Shown here piece after piece: positions 5,628 to 31,143 of a stretch of DNA of 64,000 bases. This DNA comes from a virus. Numbering within the stretch: the stretch's first letter is position 1; each line of letters begins with the position of its first letter. Both the position numbers and the translations under genes were made by a program. The DNA lies in IMG/VR virus record IMGVR_UViG_3300006028_000001, positions 1-64,000 of that record. The stretch is one strand, 5' to 3'. The notes below the pieces were generated by a model that saw only the letters and a program-made list of their open reading frames with translations, did no database searches and was not told the DNA's origin.

Positions 5628-5665
5628 CACACACCACGAACATCCCTCGTAGCACGGAGATTGCC

Positions 5666-5968
5666 ATGCCTGACCTTGCCGTAAGAATCGACGACCAATA
5701 CGTGCCCCTGGCCGACTGTGACTGGGTGTTTCGGGAGCCGTGCGGCTGCCCGTTCGGCGTGATGTCCGCCGTCGCCCACTCCGGCCACATCATCGCCGCC
5801 GACGAAGGGGCGGCGTGGCAGGAGTTCTACGACACAGCCCGGGAACGCAACGCCGCCCGCAAGCAGGGCGTCACAGCCGAACTGATGACCCACGAGCGGT
5901 ACGGCCGCGAGGTCATGCCGCTGATGCGCGGCGGCTCCGGTCATGCCTGCGGCAAGGCGGTGGCGTGA
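5666..5968 (+). CDS. Hypothetical protein
   Basis: GGAG RBS; PCGC motif. Confidence 0.6.
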   Translation: MPDLAVRIDDQYVPLADCDWVFREPCGCPFGVMSAVAHSGHIIAADEGAAWQEFYDTARERNAARKQGVTAELMTHERYGREVMPLMRGGSGHACGKAVA

Positions 5969-6576
5969 TGGCTGACCTGACCCTCACCGGCCCGTACTTC
6001 GAGACGTTCGCAATGGACGAGGACCACCCGACCGGCGGGGTGGGCTTCATTTGCTCCACGTGCCGCCGGGACGTGTCCACCGACCCGTGCCCCGACCACG
6101 CCCCCGTGGAGGTTCCCGGACTGGCGCTGGTCGAATGCGAGAAGACGCCGCGGCACTGGGCGTGGGTGCTCGCGTCCGACGCCAACGGCTACGGCATTCC
6201 CTGCTGGCAGTGCATCACCGAAGAGGACTCGGCGCAGCGTCGTGCAGCCGAGGACGCCCGCCACGGGCACTGGTCGCGCCGCTGGCGGTACTGGCCCGTC
6301 GCCCAGTGGACGGCGCGGCGGGCACGCAGCCTCGGCGTCATCGGCGGCTACGGCCTGGCCCTGGAGGACCGCGGCTGGCGGCTGTTCGGTGTCCGACTCA
6401 AGGGTCGCCGTGACTACATCCTCGGCGCGCCAAGGGAAACCTGGCACTGCTGGCTGATCGGCCACCATCGGCGCGGCGAACAGGTCGGCCCCGGATTCTG
6501 TGGCAAGTGCGTGCCGTGGCCGTGCTGCGGATCCATCCGGGTTGAGCACCAGCCGGGATGCCGCGACAACGCGTGA
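5968..6576 (+). CDS. Hypothetical Cys/His-rich protein
   Basis: TGATG coupling; several CxxC motifs. Confidence 0.6.
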   Translation: MADLTLTGPYFETFAMDEDHPTGGVGFICSTCRRDVSTDPCPDHAPVEVPGLALVECEKTPRHWAWVLASDANGYGIPCWQCITEEDSAQRRAAEDARHGHWSRRWRYWPVAQWTARRARSLGVIGGYGLALEDRGWRLFGVRLKGRRDYILGAPRETWHCWLIGHHRRGEQVGPGFCGKCVPWPCCGSIRVEHQPGCRDNA

Positions 6577-25589: not shown

Positions 25590-26192
25590 ATGACAGACCC
25601 CGACAAGCGGTACTGCGGCGGCAAGAAGCGCCAGGGCGAGGGGACCTGCACTCGGCCACCGGGCTGGGGTACGGCCCATGCGGGCGCGGGCCGCTGCAAG
25701 CTCCACGGCGGGTCCGCGCCATCGGGGCGAGTGGCGGGGGCGACCGAACTCGCCCGCCGGGCGATGGAAACGTACGGTGTCAAGGTCGATACCAACCCCA
25801 TAGAGGCGTTGCTGGACGAGGTGCGTTGGACCGCTGGGCATGTTGCCTGGCTGCGGGAACGCGTCCAGCAGACCGAGCAGGACGCTCTGGTATGGGGACA
25901 GACCGAGGCGGTCAACAAGCAGGCCAGCGAGTACCCAGGTCTCGACACCACTGAGGCGGCCAAGCCGAACGTCTGGCTCGTGCTGTACCAGCAGGAACGC
26001 AAACACCTGGTGGATGTATGCAAGGCAGCCATCTCGGCCGGCATCGCCGAACGGCAGGTGCAGCTCGCCGAGGAACAGGGCCGCATGCTCGCCGACGTGA
26101 TCCGGGCCGTTCTCGGCGATCTCGGCCTAACTGCCGAGCAGCGCGCCAGGGCAGAGGTTGTGGTGCCGCAACGACTGCGGGCGGTCGCCTGA
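25590..26192 (+). CDS. Terminase small subunit (putative)
   Basis: CGGKKR...C...GWGT.H.G.GRCKLHGG motif; directly upstream of TerL. Confidence 0.7.
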   Translation: MTDPDKRYCGGKKRQGEGTCTRPPGWGTAHAGAGRCKLHGGSAPSGRVAGATELARRAMETYGVKVDTNPIEALLDEVRWTAGHVAWLRERVQQTEQDALVWGQTEAVNKQASEYPGLDTTEAAKPNVWLVLYQQERKHLVDVCKAAISAGIAERQVQLAEEQGRMLADVIRAVLGDLGLTAEQRARAEVVVPQRLRAVA

Positions 26193-26205
26193 GCGGGTGA
26201 GCGCG

Positions 26206-27612
26206 ATGTTGTTGACTGATCGGCTGTCGCCGTGGGAAGTGGCGGCGCGCCTGTTCGGCGAGCTTCGGCCGCCGTGGCGGCAGATTGCCCGACCGGAGCA
26301 GTTGGCGCCCGACGGAACGTGGCTGACCTGGGCCTACTGTGCCGGGCGAGGCGCGGGCAAGACCAGGGCTGCCGCCGAGTGGGCACACGAGCGGGCCATG
26401 AGCACCCCGGGCGTGCGGATCGCCCTGGTTGGCCGTACGCCCGCCGATGTGCGTGACGTCATGATCGAGGGCGAGTCGGGCATCCTCGCCATTGCCGGCC
26501 GTGACCGACCCGTCTACCAGTCCACCAAGCGGCGGCTGACGTGGCCGAACGGGTCCACCGCGCATACCTACTCCGCCGAGGTGCCGGCGCAGCTGCGCGG
26601 ACCGCAGCATCATTACGCCTGGGCGGACGAGGCGGCCGCCTGGACGGATGCCCCGAAGGGCGACGCCCTGGACACCGCCTGGAACAACCTGATGCTCGGG
26701 CTGCGGCTGGGTGCCTCACCGCGGTGCGTGGTGACCACCACCCCGAAACCGAACGCCCTGACCCGCACCATCCTGGCCCGACCGTCTACCGTCGTCACCC
26801 GCGGCACCACCTACGACAACCTGACCAACCTTGCCCCGTCGTTCCGCGACGAGGTGCTGGCCACGTATGAAGGCACCCGCATCGGCCGGCAGGAACTGCT
26901 CGGCGAGGTTCTCGACGACGTTGAGGGTGCGCTGTGGACCCTCGGCCTGATCGACGAATGCCGGGTCGGCCAGGCGCCGGACATGCGTCGCATCGTGGTG
27001 GCGGTCGACCCGTCCGGTGGGTCGGGACCCAACCACGACGAGCAGGGCATCATCGTGGCCGGCATCGGCATCGACGGCGAGTTGTACGTGCTGGCGGACC
27101 GGTCGTGCAGCCTGTCCCCGCACGGCTGGGCATCCCGCGCGGTCGGTGCGTTCCACGAGTTCTCCGCCGACCGGATCGTCGCCGAACGCAACTACGGTGG
27201 CGATATGGTGGAGTCGACCATCCGGCAGGTTGATGCCAACGTCCCGGTGAAGGTCATCACCGCGTCTCGCGGCAAGGTGCAACGCGCCGAGCCGCTGGCC
27301 GCCCTGTACGAGCAGCGCCGCGCCCACCATGTGGGGGCGCTGCCGAAACTCGAAGACCAGATGACCACCTGGACCCCGCTGGACGGCACCAGCCCGGACC
27401 GCATGGACGCCCTGGTGTGGGCGGGGGCCGAGTTGACCGACAACTTCAGCGCGCAGGCGTGGATTGAGCACTTCCGCCGAAAAGCTGAAGCGACCGCCGA
27501 TGCGGAGGCGGCCGCTGCGGGCGAGCCGAGCCAGCCGGCGGCGCCCGTTGAGGATCCGGTGGCCATCCGCAAACGCATCCGCGACGCCGCCCACCGGAGC
27601 CAAACCAGGTAA
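26206..27612 (+). CDS. Terminase large subunit
   Basis: AGRGAGKTR Walker A, AWADEAA Walker B, VTTTP, VAVDPS, SPDRMDALVWA. Confidence 0.95.
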   Translation: MLLTDRLSPWEVAARLFGELRPPWRQIARPEQLAPDGTWLTWAYCAGRGAGKTRAAAEWAHERAMSTPGVRIALVGRTPADVRDVMIEGESGILAIAGRDRPVYQSTKRRLTWPNGSTAHTYSAEVPAQLRGPQHHYAWADEAAAWTDAPKGDALDTAWNNLMLGLRLGASPRCVVTTTPKPNALTRTILARPSTVVTRGTTYDNLTNLAPSFRDEVLATYEGTRIGRQELLGEVLDDVEGALWTLGLIDECRVGQAPDMRRIVVAVDPSGGSGPNHDEQGIIVAGIGIDGELYVLADRSCSLSPHGWASRAVGAFHEFSADRIVAERNYGGDMVESTIRQVDANVPVKVITASRGKVQRAEPLAALYEQRRAHHVGALPKLEDQMTTWTPLDGTSPDRMDALVWAGAELTDNFSAQAWIEHFRRKAEATADAEAAAAGEPSQPAAPVEDPVAIRKRIRDAAHRSQTR

Positions 27613-27629: not shown

Positions 27630-30011
27630 ATGGCCGTACGCCCCTCCACCCGCCGCGGGCAAACCCCGAAGCGACGCTCCACCTCGGTCGCGGTCAACAA
27701 GGCGTACAACTCGGCCGAGCCGCCGGAGATGGCCGCGGGTGAGCGCGCCGCCGGCATGGACGTCACCCGGCCCTTCAGCCCAGGTGAGCCGATCGGCCCG
27801 TACGAGGGGTACAGCCGGCACCCGCGGCAGCGGGAGTTCGTTACCGGCTACAACATCGCCGCCCGGCCCAGGTCGCATGAGCGGGTCGCGTTCGACACAC
27901 TCAAGGGCCTGATCGAGGCGTACGACGTCGCGTCGATCTGCATCTGGCACCGCATCGACTCGATCCGCGCCCTGGACTGGTCGCTGGTGCCGGTGCGTGG
28001 CTTCGCAGGCGACGCCGACGACGTCATCGACCACGGCATGCGGGCGCTGGAGAAGCCGGACGGGGAAACCCCCTTCCACTCGTGGCTGGCGAAGTGGTTG
28101 TACGACGTCCTCGCCTACGACGCCGGCTGCCTGTACCGCACCCGCAACCGCCGCGGTGACGTGGTGGGGCTGTCCACCGTGGACGGCACCAGCGTGGCGC
28201 CGCTGCTGGACTACTGGGGCCGCTCGCCCAAGCCACCGGCCGAGGCGTACGTCCAGTATGTGAATGGCCTGCCGTGGAACTGGCTGACCCGCGACGACCT
28301 GATCTACGAGCCGTTCCGGCCCATCACCGGCAGCGTGTACGGCCGGGCGCCGTTGGAAAGCATCCTGCTCAACGCCAACACCGACCTGCGGTTCCAGGCA
28401 TACTTTTTGCAAAGATTTACGGAAGGCAATATCCCGGCGGCGTTCGCCAGCGCACCGGAAACGTGGACGCCGAGCCAGATCGAGCAGTTCCAGGAGTATT
28501 GGGACGCGTTCATGCTCGGCGACCAGACGGTCAAGTCGCAGATCAAGTGGATCCCCGGCGGTTCCACGATTGCGTGGTCCAACGAGAAGGAGTTCCAGGA
28601 CCACTTCAGCCTGTTTCTGATGCGGAAAACAGCGGCCGCGTACCACGTGGTGCCGGCCGACCTGGGTTTCACCGAGGACGTCAACCGTTCCTCCGGTGAG
28701 ACGCAGGGCGATGTGCAGCACCGCATCGGCGACCTGCCGCTGATCGGGCACGTGCAGAGCATCCTGTCGCACTACCTGCGCCACGACCTCGGTCTGCCAA
28801 TCAAGTTCGCGTTCGACACCGGCCAGGAGAAGGACGACCGGCTCACCCAGGCGCAGGCGTGGCAGATCTACGTGGCCACCGGCGCGGCGAGTCCCGACGA
28901 GATGCGGGAGGAACTGCTCGGCCTGCCCGGCGACCCGGGCCGTCCGACGCCCCGGTTCTACGCCACCACCCGCTCCGGTCCGATCCCGCTGCTGGCGATC
29001 GACGGGGTGGCCGGAAAGGTGGACCCGGAAACGTTCGGGCCGCGCGTCGACCAGCCGATCATCTACCAGCCGTTCGTGGCGCCGCCCGGTGTGGTGGCCG
29101 CCGAAGGCACCACCGACCACACGGCGTCGATGCAGGCCGAAGACGGATATCAGATGGCGGTGCGGCAGCAGCTTGAGGCGCAGGACAACGCGCAGCCGCT
29201 GGCGCCGGTGGTGAAGGACGGCCCGACCGTTGGTGTCACCACCCAGACCGGCATCACCTCCTACGACCTGATCGGGCACGACGACGACGAGCAGGAGACG
29301 CCCGCCGATCTGGTGAAGCGGGAGATGGTGGCGTTCCGCCGGTTCCGCACCGCCCGCCGTCGCGACGGCCGGTGGCGCGACTTCAAGTTCGGGCACGTCG
29401 ATCCGGTTCGGGCGCATCGGCTGAACGACGCCGGCCGGTTGGCGGTGCGTAAGGCCGCCGGCGAGGTGGCGGTCGCCGGGCTCGCGGTGCGCGCGGCCGA
29501 CACCGGCCGGGTGCTGATGCTGCAGCGGGCGCTCGATGACGAGGATCCCGCCGGTGGTACATGGGAGTTCCCGGGCGGCCACCTGGACGGCGACGAGACA
29601 CCACTGCAGGCAGCCTGGCGGGAGTGGGCTGAGGAAACCCGGGCCATCCCGCCGCCCGGCCAGCAGACCGGGTCGTGGACCGCGGGCGATGGCATCTATG
29701 AGGGCATCGTGTGGACGGTGCCGGACGAGGCGCATGTGCCTGTGCACACTGGCCGCGATCAGATCGACAACCCGGACGACCCGGACGGCGACGCCGTCGA
29801 AGCGATCGCCTGGTGGGATCCGGAGCAGCTGGCCGGCAACCCGGCGGTACGCCCGGAGCTACTCGACTCGCTCGGCGACGTACTGACCGCGCTTGGCGTG
29901 GAGTCGGCTTCCGAGCCGGACCTGGAGCAGTTGGAGAAGGCGGCCGATGCCGACCCAAAAGCCCCGGCCCTGATCGGGGCTGGCCAGGGTGGGATTGGGA
30001 CGCGCGGGTAG
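27630..30011 (+). CDS. Portal protein fused to a NUDIX hydrolase domain
   Basis: Portal motifs (YGRAPLE, FTEGNIP, VPADLGFTEDVNRSSG); Nudix box GGHLDGDETPLQAAWREWAEET. Confidence 0.9.
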   Translation: MAVRPSTRRGQTPKRRSTSVAVNKAYNSAEPPEMAAGERAAGMDVTRPFSPGEPIGPYEGYSRHPRQREFVTGYNIAARPRSHERVAFDTLKGLIEAYDVASICIWHRIDSIRALDWSLVPVRGFAGDADDVIDHGMRALEKPDGETPFHSWLAKWLYDVLAYDAGCLYRTRNRRGDVVGLSTVDGTSVAPLLDYWGRSPKPPAEAYVQYVNGLPWNWLTRDDLIYEPFRPITGSVYGRAPLESILLNANTDLRFQAYFLQRFTEGNIPAAFASAPETWTPSQIEQFQEYWDAFMLGDQTVKSQIKWIPGGSTIAWSNEKEFQDHFSLFLMRKTAAAYHVVPADLGFTEDVNRSSGETQGDVQHRIGDLPLIGHVQSILSHYLRHDLGLPIKFAFDTGQEKDDRLTQAQAWQIYVATGAASPDEMREELLGLPGDPGRPTPRFYATTRSGPIPLLAIDGVAGKVDPETFGPRVDQPIIYQPFVAPPGVVAAEGTTDHTASMQAEDGYQMAVRQQLEAQDNAQPLAPVVKDGPTVGVTTQTGITSYDLIGHDDDEQETPADLVKREMVAFRRFRTARRRDGRWRDFKFGHVDPVRAHRLNDAGRLAVRKAAGEVAVAGLAVRAADTGRVLMLQRALDDEDPAGGTWEFPGGHLDGDETPLQAAWREWAEETRAIPPPGQQTGSWTAGDGIYEGIVWTVPDEAHVPVHTGRDQIDNPDDPDGDAVEAIAWWDPEQLAGNPAVRPELLDSLGDVLTALGVESASEPDLEQLEKAADADPKAPALIGAGQGGIGTRG

Positions 30012-30739
30012 CCGACCACTGGGCGCCGCGCATCGCCGACGCGACCGCCGGGACGCTGACCGCCGACCAGGCGCGGCAGATCGCTGGCGACTTCGAGACC
30101 GACGGCAGCGACCGGGACCGCGTCGCCTTGGTCGCTGCCGTCGCCCTGTGGATGGCCAGCCAGGGTGTGGACCCGGTCGAAGGGCTGGCCGTCCTACTGC
30201 CGGGGCTCTACGTCGATGGCTGGCTCGTCGGCGCTGCGTCGGCGCGGGCGATGGTCGACGGCGCGCCGCTGGACCTCGGCGACTGGACGCCGGGTGACAC
30301 GGCTGTCGCTCAGGCCCAGATCGAGGCGCTCGGCGTATCCGCCGGGCTCGCGACCCTGCTGGACGGTGTGCCGGACGCGGCCCGGGACATCGCCGACGGA
30401 CGGTTGAAGGATCTGGCCCGGGTGCTCATCGACGGCACCGACGCCGGGGATCCGGCCGATGTGGTCGGCGACGCGCTGCTTGAGGAAGCCGGTGACCCGG
30501 CGCGCGCCGCGGCGGTAGCGACAGGTGCCGTGGTGACAGCGGCCGGGCTGGCCGCCATGGCCGCCTACCTCGGCGCGGGGGTGCGCATGGGCCGGTGGGT
30601 GACGGACTCCGGCAACGTGTGCCCTGCCTGCCGGGCCAATGCCGACGCGGGCGAGGTGCCGGTCGGTGAGCCGTATCCGTCCGGTGCCGTGGAGGCGCCG
30701 CAGCACCCGCGTTGCCGCTGCCAGGTCGTTCCTGCGTGA
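29954..30739 (+). CDS. MuF-like minor head domain, probably expressed by -1 frameshift from the portal
   Basis: CPAC...PQHPRCRC MuF motif; no obvious own RBS/start; C CCA AAA slippery site. Confidence 0.7.
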   Translation, partial: PKSPGPDRGWPGWDWDARVADHWAPRIADATAGTLTADQARQIAGDFETDGSDRDRVALVAAVALWMASQGVDPVEGLAVLLPGLYVDGWLVGAASARAMVDGAPLDLGDWTPGDTAVAQAQIEALGVSAGLATLLDGVPDAARDIADGRLKDLARVLIDGTDAGDPADVVGDALLEEAGDPARAAAVATGAVVTAAGLAAMAAYLGAGVRMGRWVTDSGNVCPACRANADAGEVPVGEPYPSGAVEAPQHPRCRCQVVPA

Positions 30740-30753
30740 CCCGGGAGGTGGCT

Positions 30754-31143
30754 GTGCCTGAGCAGCGCTACGTGCTGGGAATCGCATACCAGGCCGGCCC
30801 GGATCCGCGAATCCAGCGTGGCGCCGACGGCGGCCGCGACTACTTCACAGCCGAAGAGTTGGAGAAGGCCGCTTGGTCGTTCCTCAAGAACGGCCCGGCT
30901 CACGGCCTGTTCCATGTCGACGGCACCGAGGGTGCCGCCACCTGTGTGGAGAGCTACGTGTACCGCGGCCCTGATTGGGACCTCGGCGACGACATTGTGG
31001 TCAAGGCCGGCGACTGGCTGGTGGGGGCGATCCTCGACGAGCGTGCCTGGGATCTGGTCAAGTCCGGCGAGGTGACCGGCTGGTCACCGCAAGGATCCGC
31101 GACCCGGCGCCGACGCACCCGACGCACGGAAAGCGAGCAGTGA
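30754..31143 (+). CDS. XkdF-like prohead serine protease domain
   Basis: RYVLGIAY...DYFTAEELEKAAWSF...ESYVY...GDWL...VKSGEVTGWSPQG. Confidence 0.8.
   Translation: MPEQRYVLGIAYQAGPDPRIQRGADGGRDYFTAEELEKAAWSFLKNGPAHGLFHVDGTEGAATCVESYVYRGPDWDLGDDIVVKAGDWLVGAILDERAWDLVKSGEVTGWSPQGSATRRRRTRRTESEQ

What the first reader, a model, noticed from the sequence alone, without database searches (positions are those of the whole stretch)
27630..30739. Portal-NUDIX fusion extended into a MuF domain by a predicted -1 ribosomal frameshift
Seen in sequence: the portal ORF carries a full Nudix box near its C-terminus. At 29954-29960 the heptamer C CCA AAA sits in the correct X XXY YYZ phase, followed by GC-rich pairing (CCCTG 29968-72 with CAGGG 29985-89; GCCCCG with CGGGGC, pseudoknot-compatible). 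The -1 frame then reads PKSPGPDRGWPGWDW... to a MuF HPRCRC end at 30739 and has no evident RBS or start of its own. Established: MuF proteins are minor head components that often carry effector domains. Inference: two products (793 aa and ~1035 aa), so only some portal subunits carry MuF, while a Nudix enzyme is built into the virion and could act on ADP-ribose/NAD-type defence signals.
Basis: partly seen in the sequence, partly recalled or inferred. Interest (0 to 1): 0.75.

Follow-up and report, generated by a model that had tools for sequence, protein, structure and literature searches.

The report
Portal gene frameshift adds MuF domain
One phage head gene carries a conserved ribosome-slipping signal that very probably lets it make the portal protein both with and without an extra head-protein (MuF) domain; relatives keep the same signal whether that domain lies in frame or one base out of frame.

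Summary
A 793-aa portal+Nudix ORF (27630-30011) is followed by a start-less MuF segment in the -1 frame, ending at 30739. An in-phase C CCA AAA lies at 29954-29960.

Comparison supports a programmed -1 frameshift.
- Of 98 related loci, 81 have MuF in frame, 17 in the -1 frame and none in +1.
- Among 82 distinct junctions, all 14 with the -1 layout and 62 of 68 in-frame ones keep an in-phase slippery heptamer at this domain boundary (CCCAAAA 66, GGGAAAA 9, CCCTTTA 1).
- These codon pairs encode 0 of 73 other Pro-Lys and 0 of 135 other Gly-Lys dipeptides in the same genes.
- In-frame relatives also have a -1-frame stop within 1-4 codons and a covarying hairpin 6 nt downstream, much as in dnaX.
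- The layout changed at least 7-9 times on the tree.

So one site probably yields both portal-Nudix and portal-Nudix-MuF in both layouts.

Weak points:
- There is no experimental evidence.
- The window's own downstream structure, including the proposed pseudoknot, is no better than composition predicts.
- The Nudix substrate is unknown.

I found no published portal-MuF frameshift. This scan has noted the same phenomenon before on other DNA.

The parts
26158..27612 (+). Terminase large subunit gene (context: start of the head module)
   Evidence: PHROG 979, 38 and 2 'terminase large subunit', E 1e-36 to 1e-23
27630..30011 (+). 0-frame ORF, 793 aa: portal + Nudix, the product made without a frameshift; stop TAG at 30009-30011
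27939..28913 (+). Portal domain (residues 104-428)
   Evidence: PF04860, 68.4 bits against a cut-off of 39.1; PHROG 2662 'portal protein', E 3.9e-40
29475..29837 (+). Nudix hydrolase domain (residues 616-736), with the catalytic R-E-x2-E-E retained
   Evidence: PF00293, 61.3 bits against a cut-off of 21.1; box residues invariant in 24 homologs
29933..29943 (+). Shine-Dalgarno-like GGAGAAGGCGG, 11-21 nt upstream of the slip site; a possible upstream stimulator that also encodes the conserved E-K-A peptide
   Evidence: Duplex with the anti-SD is -8.1 kcal/mol, 2nd percentile of same-gene windows. Family means are -6.7 and -6.8 against a background of -3.2. Confounded by protein conservation.
29954..29960 (+). 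Slippery heptamer C CCA AAA in X XXY YYZ phase: the proposed -1 frameshift site
   Evidence: Conserved in 66 of 82 distinct junctions, with GGGAAAA in 9 more. These codon pairs are used for 0 of 73 Pro-Lys and 0 of 135 Gly-Lys dipeptides elsewhere in the same genes. Background rate of in-phase heptamers is 14 per 71,034 codons.
29964..29983 (+). GC-rich hairpin (8 bp including 2 G-U pairs, 4-nt loop) starting 3 nt after the heptamer; candidate stimulator, weakly supported
   Evidence: Minimum-energy fold of 29961-30020. The 34-nt window scores -16.1 against a gene mean of -9.3 kcal/mol, 5th percentile, but z = +0.13 against dinucleotide shuffles.
29960..30739 (+). -1-frame segment, 259 codons plus stop: MuF (SPP1 gp7-like) domain from S-P-G-P-D-R-G-WPGW to HPRCRC; read only after the slip, giving a 1036-aa product
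   Evidence: PHROG 2662 profile positions 526-707 of 717, E 2.6e-16. PF04233 scores 18.1 bits for the window itself, and 27 of 30 aligned homologous segments match it, best E 6e-15. No start codon precedes the conserved WPGW motif.
30712..31143 (+). Head maturation protease gene (context: next gene of the head module)
   Evidence: PHROG 3017, E 1e-17

Best explanation
The window holds the head module of a roughly 97-kb actinobacterial phage or phage-plasmid from a rhizosphere metagenome.

Proposed mechanism: ribosomes translating the portal-Nudix ORF reach C CCA AAA (29954-29960). A fraction slip back one base, with the P-site tRNA-Pro moving from CCA to CCC and the A-site tRNA-Lys from AAA to AAA. 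Those ribosomes continue in the -1 frame through the MuF domain. One gene therefore gives a 793-aa portal-Nudix protein and a 1036-aa portal-Nudix-MuF protein, and the portal ring would be a mix of subunits with and without MuF.

The same slip site is kept in relatives whose MuF is in frame. There the slip would instead end the protein a few codons later, as in dnaX. Both gene layouts would then produce the same pair of isoforms, and single-base changes just downstream of the site have flipped the layout repeatedly.

Shown here: the sequence features, their conservation, the codon bias, the covariation and the phylogenetic pattern. Inferred: that slipping occurs, its efficiency, the mixed portal ring, and any role of the Nudix domain.
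For: 1. Layouts. Of 98 related loci with both Nudix and MuF, 81 are in frame, 17 are in -1 and 0 are in +1.
2. Heptamer. All 14 distinct -1 junctions and 62 of 68 in-frame junctions carry an in-phase slippery heptamer at the same boundary (A-K-A ... P-K ... WPGW): CCCAAAA 66, GGGAAAA 9, CCCTTTA 1. Elsewhere in these genes the rate is 14 per 71,034 codon positions.
3. Codon control. At the site, 66 of 66 Pro-Lys are CCA AAA and 9 of 9 Gly-Lys are GGA AAA. Elsewhere in the same genes the figures are 0 of 73 and 0 of 135. The preceding codon always ends in the matching base. Pro-to-Gly replacement keeps the X XXY pattern.
4. No independent start. In 9 of the 14 -1 loci a -1-frame stop lies 0-2 codons before the heptamer. 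No ATG, GTG or TTG precedes the conserved WPGW motif, and the first start lies 34-181 codons downstream.
5. MuF stays under constraint. It is open for 259-275 codons or more in all 14. Its dN/dS is 0.30-0.62, against 0.18-0.50 in in-frame pairs.
6. -1 stops in in-frame relatives. The -1 frame stops within 1 codon in 44% (null 2.3%) and within 4 codons in 68% (null 5.7%; null median 66 codons).
7. Hairpin. A 6-bp hairpin lies 6 nt downstream. In the subset chosen by the -1 stop, 84.7% of cells pair, against 70% in shuffles (0 of 500) and 33-58% when the partner is slid. Five of 6 pairs show changes on both sides. Downstream windows average -15.6 against -9.1 kcal/mol. The Sonali hairpin has z = -3.3.
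8. Phylogeny. The layout changes at least 9 times on the tree, 7 forced by strongly supported branches. The window sits in a 98%-supported clade with three in-frame loci.
9. Sequence check. An independent assembly of the source run is identical over 29700-30300 at depth about 15.
10. Upstream element. An SD-like stretch is enriched in both layouts.
Against: - No protein, ribosome-profiling or reporter data exist, and no RNA run was listed.
- The window's own downstream sequence folds no better than its dinucleotide shuffles (z = +0.13 and +1.14). Its best stem starts only 3 nt after the heptamer, which is shorter than the usual 5-9 nt.
- Across the 14 -1-layout loci the structure signal is weak: median 23rd percentile.
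- RNAalifold finds no single consensus structure over all 76 sequences.
- The SD-like element overlaps a conserved E/A-K-A peptide, so its conservation may act at the protein level.
- Slip efficiency on C CCA AAA in actinobacteria is unknown.
- If efficiency is low, the two layouts would give opposite isoform ratios, which is hard to reconcile with frequent flips.
Confidence: 0.8

Rival explanations
1. The frame break is a sequencing or assembly indel, or the gene is decaying in a defective prophage. For example, an A5 run read as A4 would restore the frame and give the same protein.
For: Most homologs are in frame (81 of 98). The window is a metagenome contig.
Against: - An independent assembly of the run is identical at depth about 15, although this is the same sample.
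- Thirteen other distinct loci from isolates and metagenomes share the -1 layout, and it is inherited within a clade of four separately sequenced Kitasatospora species.
- No locus has a +1 break.
- No CCCAAAA-type in-frame locus has an A5 run; only the GGGAAAA-type L009 has A5 before G.
- MuF is intact and under the same constraint as in in-frame forms.
Confidence: 0.03
2. MuF is a separate protein with its own non-obvious start, or is made by reinitiation after the portal-Nudix stop.
For: In the window the -1 frame is open for 84 codons upstream, with GTG at codons -81 and -47, and a TTG lies at codon +58.
Against: - In 9 of 14 -1-layout loci the -1 frame is closed 0-2 codons before the heptamer.
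- No canonical start precedes the conserved WPGW...HWAP block, which lies upstream of the 0-frame stop.
- The first downstream starts, at +34 to +181 codons, would delete conserved sequence.
Confidence: 0.04
3. The heptamer is conserved for a reason other than frameshifting: a rare-codon pause for folding at the domain boundary, a Pro-Lys protease site, or a DNA motif. The -1 layouts would then be tolerated losses of MuF.
For: Pro-Lys is also conserved as a peptide. Rare codons at domain linkers are known to slow translation (general knowledge).
Against: - Pro-Lys changes to Gly-Lys while keeping the X XXY YYZ pattern, and the preceding base always matches.
- Immediate -1-frame stops and a covarying hairpin accompany the heptamer in in-frame forms.
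- MuF stays intact and constrained in every -1 layout, and no +1 layout exists.
Confidence: 0.08
4. RNA polymerase slippage on the A run adds a base to some transcripts.
For: The site contains a homopolymer (A4), and an extra A would restore the frame.
Against: - Four A's are far shorter than known slippage tracts (general knowledge; review PMC5009743).
- This model does not explain the conserved CCC or GGG triplet, the phase, or the downstream hairpin.
Confidence: 0.03

Closest known systems
Tail assembly chaperone G/GT -1 frameshift of lambda and most long-tailed phages (Xu, Hendrix & Duda 2004, as cited in PMC7302621 and PMC10885494)
   Same: A structural-module gene, an X XXY YYZ heptamer near the end of the upstream ORF, a start-less downstream ORF in the -1 frame, and two products that share an N-terminus. 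The window has this 'extension' layout.
   Different: The gene is different (portal and MuF, not chaperones). The family also contains in-frame members in which the same site would truncate the protein. I know of no such in-frame members among G/GT genes (not checked here).
E. coli dnaX tau/gamma -1 frameshift (A AAA AAG; reviewed in PMC5009743)
   Same: In-frame relatives of the window show the same three-part signal: an upstream SD-like stretch, the heptamer and a downstream hairpin. They also have a -1-frame stop one to a few codons after the slip, so the frameshift product is the shorter protein.
   Different: The window itself has the opposite layout (the slip extends the protein). The heptamer is C CCA AAA or G GGA AAA. 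This is a phage structural gene, not a polymerase subunit.
-1 frameshift extensions of phage capsid proteins (T3/T7 gene 10, Lactobacillus phage A2; PMC5009743)
   Same: A frameshift adds a C-terminal domain to a fraction of the copies of a virion protein, which sets a ratio within one assembly. From memory, unverified here, the A2 site is also C CCA AAA.
   Different: The protein is the portal rather than the capsid, and the added part is a MuF head-morphogenesis domain rather than an Ig-like domain.
In-frame 'portal and MuF-like fusion protein' of Arthrobacter phages Sonali (gp3, 995 aa) and Mufasa8 (gp3, 1000 aa); portal-MuF fusions of Microbacterium phages (PMC7302621)
   Same: The same portal-Nudix-MuF order, 43-45% identity in the portal part, and the same in-phase C CCA AAA at the Nudix/MuF boundary.
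   Different: They are annotated as one in-frame protein with no recoding. The window has MuF in the -1 frame.
Nudix domains fused to portal, MuF or prohead protease (Iyer, Burroughs, Aravind and co-workers, PMC9503650)
   Same: A Nudix domain built into a head protein, which that paper proposes is packaged and delivered.
   Different: That paper describes domain architectures only. It reports no frameshift and no two-isoform expression.

Membership tests
Programmed -1 ribosomal frameshift site (tandem-slippage type) | X XXY YYZ heptamer in phase with the upstream ORF | tested here: met
   C CCA AAA at 29954-29960, with 0-frame codons at 29955-29960
Programmed -1 ribosomal frameshift site (tandem-slippage type) | Downstream coding sequence in the -1 frame, overlapping the upstream ORF and lacking its own start | tested here: met
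Programmed -1 ribosomal frameshift site (tandem-slippage type) | Nucleotide-level conservation of the heptamer across diverged homologs, beyond what the protein requires | tested here: met
   76 of 82 junctions carry it. The codon pairs are used in 0 of 73 and 0 of 135 control dipeptides.
Programmed -1 ribosomal frameshift site (tandem-slippage type) | Stimulatory RNA structure 5-9 nt downstream | tested here: inconclusive
   Met for in-frame relatives: a hairpin 6 nt downstream with covariation. For the window itself the stem starts 3 nt downstream, z = +0.13 against shuffles, 5th percentile against same-gene windows.
Programmed -1 ribosomal frameshift site (tandem-slippage type) | A trans-frame protein product is observed | not testable with these tools
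   Needs mass spectrometry or a reporter assay
Phage portal protein (PF04860) | Profile match above the curated cut-off | tested here: met
   68.4 bits against 39.1
Nudix hydrolase (PF00293) | Profile match above the cut-off, and Nudix box G-x5-E-x7-R-E-U-x-E-E-x-G-U | tested here: met
   61.3 bits against 21.1. The box is complete except that the last Gly is Arg in the window. The catalytic R-E-x2-E-E is invariant in 24 homologs.
MuF / SPP1 gp7 head morphogenesis protein (PF04233) | Profile match above the curated cut-off | tested here: inconclusive
   The window's segment scores 18.1 bits against a cut-off of 29.6. Of 30 aligned homologous segments, 27 match PF04233, best E 6e-15. PHROG 2662 C-terminal part, E 2.6e-16.
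dnaX-type frameshift (the slip gives the shorter product) | -1-frame stop directly after the slip site | tested here: not met
   Not met for the window, where the -1 frame runs on for 259 codons. Met in in-frame relatives: within 1 codon in 44% and within 4 codons in 68%.

The most novel reading that the evidence does not exclude
A single slip site at the Nudix/MuF boundary works at roughly balanced efficiency. One-base changes just downstream can then flip the gene between 'slip to extend' and 'slip to truncate' without changing the pair of isoforms made. This would explain the 7 or more flips and the complete lack of +1 layouts. It implies that portal rings in this large family, and probably in distant portal-MuF phages that use T TTT TTC, must be mixed assemblies of subunits with and without MuF.
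Probability: 0.5. Interest if true: 0.85.

Novelty: new variant of a known kind. Interest (0 to 1): 0.7.

Why it matters
- Programmed frameshifts in tailed phages are annotated almost only in tail chaperone genes, and in a few capsid and tail genes. A conserved one in the portal gene would add a new class. It would also change how hundreds of 'portal', 'portal-MuF fusion' and orphan start-less 'MuF' genes are annotated.
- It gives a concrete hypothesis for how phages set the copy number of MuF and its enzyme cargo at the portal vertex.
- The repeated switching between extending and truncating layouts at one site is an unusually clear natural experiment on how recoding signals evolve.
- It is directly testable in two cultured Arthrobacter phages, Sonali and Mufasa8.

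Tried and rejected
I could therefore not fetch DNA for the short-form proteins P0008, P0018 and P0056. Their -1 layout is inferred only from C-terminal tails ending in ...GRR.
- No RNA holder was listed. Only Logan contigs of the probable source run could be laid, so nothing can be said about expression.
- tblastn of the MuF segment against cultured phages found nothing at E 1e-5. Only Sonali and Mufasa8 are close cultured relatives.
- RNAalifold on all 76 heptamer-anchored sequences gave no consensus structure, because hairpin register and linker length vary. Only a subset analysis gave a helix.
- An internal ribosome-binding site within AAAAGG followed by a start was rejected: no in-frame start follows it.
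- The Nudix substrate could not be assigned from solved structures, which gave only weak generic matches. No solved relative of the MuF segment was found.
- No tRNA genes are present in the window.
- Literature searches for a portal or MuF frameshift found none. The phage A2 paper (PMC355979) is not held.
Full report
**Observation.** The ORF at 27630-30011 (+) encodes 793 aa. It contains a portal domain (PF04860, 68.4 bits) and a Nudix domain (PF00293, 61.3 bits). CCCAAAA lies at 29954-29960, with the 0-frame codons CCA AAA at 29955-29960, which is the X XXY YYZ phase. The -1 frame then reads S-P-G-P-D-R-G-WPGW... for 259 codons, through ...HPRCRCQVVPA, to a stop at 30737-30739. In that frame no ATG, GTG or TTG lies between codon -47 (inside Nudix) and codon +58. 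A slip would give a 1036-aa protein. The flanking genes are the terminase large subunit upstream and the head maturation protease downstream. This is the usual place for portal and MuF genes.

**What the pieces are.** PHROG 2662 ('portal protein', 717 profile positions) matches the 0-frame product at positions 34-419. It matches the -1-frame product at positions 526-707. The two pieces are therefore halves of one known fused protein type. The window's MuF segment scores below Pfam's cut-off on its own (18.1 against 29.6 bits). However, 27 of 30 aligned homologous segments match PF04233. Arthrobacter phages Sonali (gp3, 995 aa, annotated 'portal and MuF-like fusion protein') and Mufasa8 (gp3, 1000 aa) have the same portal-Nudix-MuF order in a single frame.

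**Relatives and layouts.** A protein search found about 500 homologs in Streptomyces, Kitasatospora and soil metagenomes. Most are 1010-1120 aa in-frame proteins, and a minority are 763-850 aa. I fetched 184 related loci from genomes, viral contigs and metagenomes. Of the 98 loci that hold both Nudix and MuF, MuF is in frame in 81, in the -1 frame in 17 and in the +1 frame in none. After removing duplicates there are 82 distinct junctions, 14 of them with the -1 layout.

**The heptamer is under nucleotide-level selection.**
- All 14 junctions with the -1 layout carry in-phase CCCAAAA exactly where homology switches frame.
- Of the 68 in-frame junctions, 52 have CCCAAAA, 9 have GGGAAAA and 1 has CCCTTTA, all in phase at the same linker position (after an A-K-A motif and before WPGW). 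Six have none, and four of those form one clade.
- Elsewhere in these genes, in-phase slippery heptamers occur 14 times in 71,034 codon positions.
- Both codons are rare in these high-GC genes. At the site, 66 of 66 Pro-Lys are CCA AAA and 9 of 9 Gly-Lys are GGA AAA. Elsewhere in the same genes the figures are 0 of 73 and 0 of 135. The preceding codon always ends in the matching base.
- Where Pro is replaced by Gly, the X XXY pattern is kept. Tandem tRNA slippage predicts exactly this; protein constraint does not.

**In-frame relatives look like dnaX.**
- After the heptamer the -1 frame stops within 1 codon in 44% of junctions and within 4 codons in 68%. The nulls from other positions of the same genes are 2.3% and 5.7%, with a null median of 66 codons. 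A common form is the heptamer followed by GGTGA, which uses a rare Gly codon.
- The 34 nt downstream fold more stably than same-phase windows of the same gene (-15.6 against -9.1 kcal/mol, median 4.6th percentile).
- To test the hairpin I chose a subset by a non-structural criterion: the 27 junctions with an immediate -1 stop. There a 6-bp hairpin with a 5-nt loop, 6 nt after the heptamer, pairs in 84.7% of cells. Shuffles give 70% (0 of 500 reach the observed value) and slid partners give 33-58%. Five of 6 pairs change on both sides, for example GCCCCC/GGGGGC against GCCTCC/GGAGGC, which also changes the encoded amino acids.
- On all 76 sequences in one fixed register the signal is weaker but present. 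RNAalifold finds no single consensus there.
- Sonali's hairpin has z = -3.3.
- An SD-like stretch 3-20 nt upstream is enriched in both layouts (-6.7 and -6.8 against -3.2 kcal/mol). It overlaps a conserved peptide, so this point is only suggestive.

**The -1 layouts need the slip.**
- In 9 of 14, a -1-frame stop lies 0-2 codons before the heptamer.
- No start codon precedes the conserved WPGW...HWAP block, which lies upstream of the 0-frame stop.
- The first possible start is 34-181 codons further on.
- The MuF frame is open to its conserved Cys/His end in all 14. Its dN/dS (0.30-0.62) is in the range of in-frame pairs (0.18-0.50).

**Phylogeny.** On a tree of 78 DNA-verified loci the layout changes at least 9 times, with 7 changes forced by strongly supported branches. 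L125 (-1 layout) and L130 (in frame) are sisters. The window sits in a 98%-supported clade with three in-frame loci, apart from the Kitasatospora -1 clade. Repeated flips at one site, always to -1 and never to +1, are expected if the site already shifts ribosomes by -1. A one-base loss downstream then swaps which isoform needs the slip.

**Artefact check.** The window comes from a rhizosphere metagenome. Logan's separate assembly of that run is identical over 29700-30300 at depth about 15. This is the same sample, so it is not independent. Stronger evidence against an artefact is that the -1 layout recurs in 13 other distinct sequences, including four separately sequenced isolates that form a clade.

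**What remains weak for the window itself.** Its downstream stems exist. The best is an 8-bp stem, 29964-71 with 29976-83, starting 3 nt after the heptamer. However, the region folds no better than shuffles of its own composition (z = +0.13). It does lie in the 5th percentile of same-gene windows. Across the -1 layouts the structure signal is modest. Slip efficiency is unknown.

**Likely function (inference).** MuF homologs such as SPP1 gp7 are minor head proteins associated with the portal (general knowledge). Fusing MuF, together with a Nudix enzyme, to all twelve portal subunits may be too much. Alternatively, free portal C-termini may be needed. A slip site would fix the ratio of the two forms. 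The catalytic Nudix residues are invariant, so the enzyme is probably active, but its substrate cannot be named. The published idea that such head-fused Nudix domains are packaged and delivered is in PMC9503650.

**Comparison with what is known.**
- Portal-MuF fusions (PMC7302621) and Nudix-head protein fusions are described.
- The major review of frameshifting, PMC5009743, does not contain the word 'portal' in the held text, which is the first 300,000 of 449,034 characters. [quoted passage not shown]
- The PRFect paper likewise has no mention of a portal case.
- Full-text searches found no portal-MuF frameshift.
- Earlier notes of this scan describe the same kind of site on other DNA. One concerns an in-frame family with two cultured phages (e1-5906449). 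Another concerns a G GGA AAA case (e1-6017431). Several concern T TTT TTC sites in Bacteroidales prophages. These notes are leads, not evidence.
- In my own distant loci without Nudix (L025, L026, L172, L173, L186), MuF is also in the -1 frame. An in-phase T TTT TTC or C CCT TTA precedes a conserved -1-frame peptide there.

**Verdict.** The mechanism is a known kind (-1 programmed frameshift) in a gene class for which I found no published report. It has an unusual two-layout evolutionary pattern. Confidence that the slip occurs at 29954-29960 is about 0.8.

Noticed in passing
whole window / its contig: The window's contig is 97,540 bp. Many homologs sit on contigs of 95-99 kb, and one is annotated as a plasmid of Streptomyces graminifolii (P0063). 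This suggests a family of roughly 97-kb extrachromosomal phage-plasmids of Streptomyces and Kitasatospora.
   Followed up: no
L025, L026 (Tengunoibacter), L172, L173, L186: Distant portal-MuF loci without Nudix (31-35% identity) also have MuF in the -1 frame. An in-phase T TTT TTC or C CCT TTA lies 67-109 nt before the portal stop, and a conserved -1-frame peptide (WRPP...LE) starts there. In L025 a -1-frame stop directly precedes the heptamer.
   Followed up: partly
L006, L012, L015, L017: One clade of in-frame homologs has lost the slippery heptamer altogether. L012, L015 and L017, like several heptamer-bearing loci (L008, L013, L024), also carry Cys/His-rich zinc-finger-like insertions between Nudix and the linker. 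It is unclear whether this clade makes only the long isoform.
   Followed up: no
L020 (=L147) 5645-6365; L176: In these relatives the segment between portal and MuF holds two H-x-T/S motifs typical of 2H phosphoesterases, in place of or beside Nudix. L020 still has in-phase CCCAAAA before WPGW.
   Followed up: no
proteins P0011, P0064, P0076, P0090, P0098, P0101, P0118; locus L056: A third architecture of about 810 aa. Portal-Nudix is followed in frame only by the short Cys/His C-terminal end of MuF. The middle of the MuF domain and the heptamer are both missing.
   Followed up: no
window 29574-29642: The last Gly of the Nudix box is Arg in the window, while relatives have Gly. The catalytic Glu and Arg residues are intact.
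   Followed up: no
L004, L005, L007, L019: In the Kitasatospora -1-layout clade the 0-frame stop TGA lies inside the codons for the conserved -1-frame motif H/Y-W-A-P-L-I. That stop is therefore fixed by MuF's own protein sequence.
   Followed up: partly
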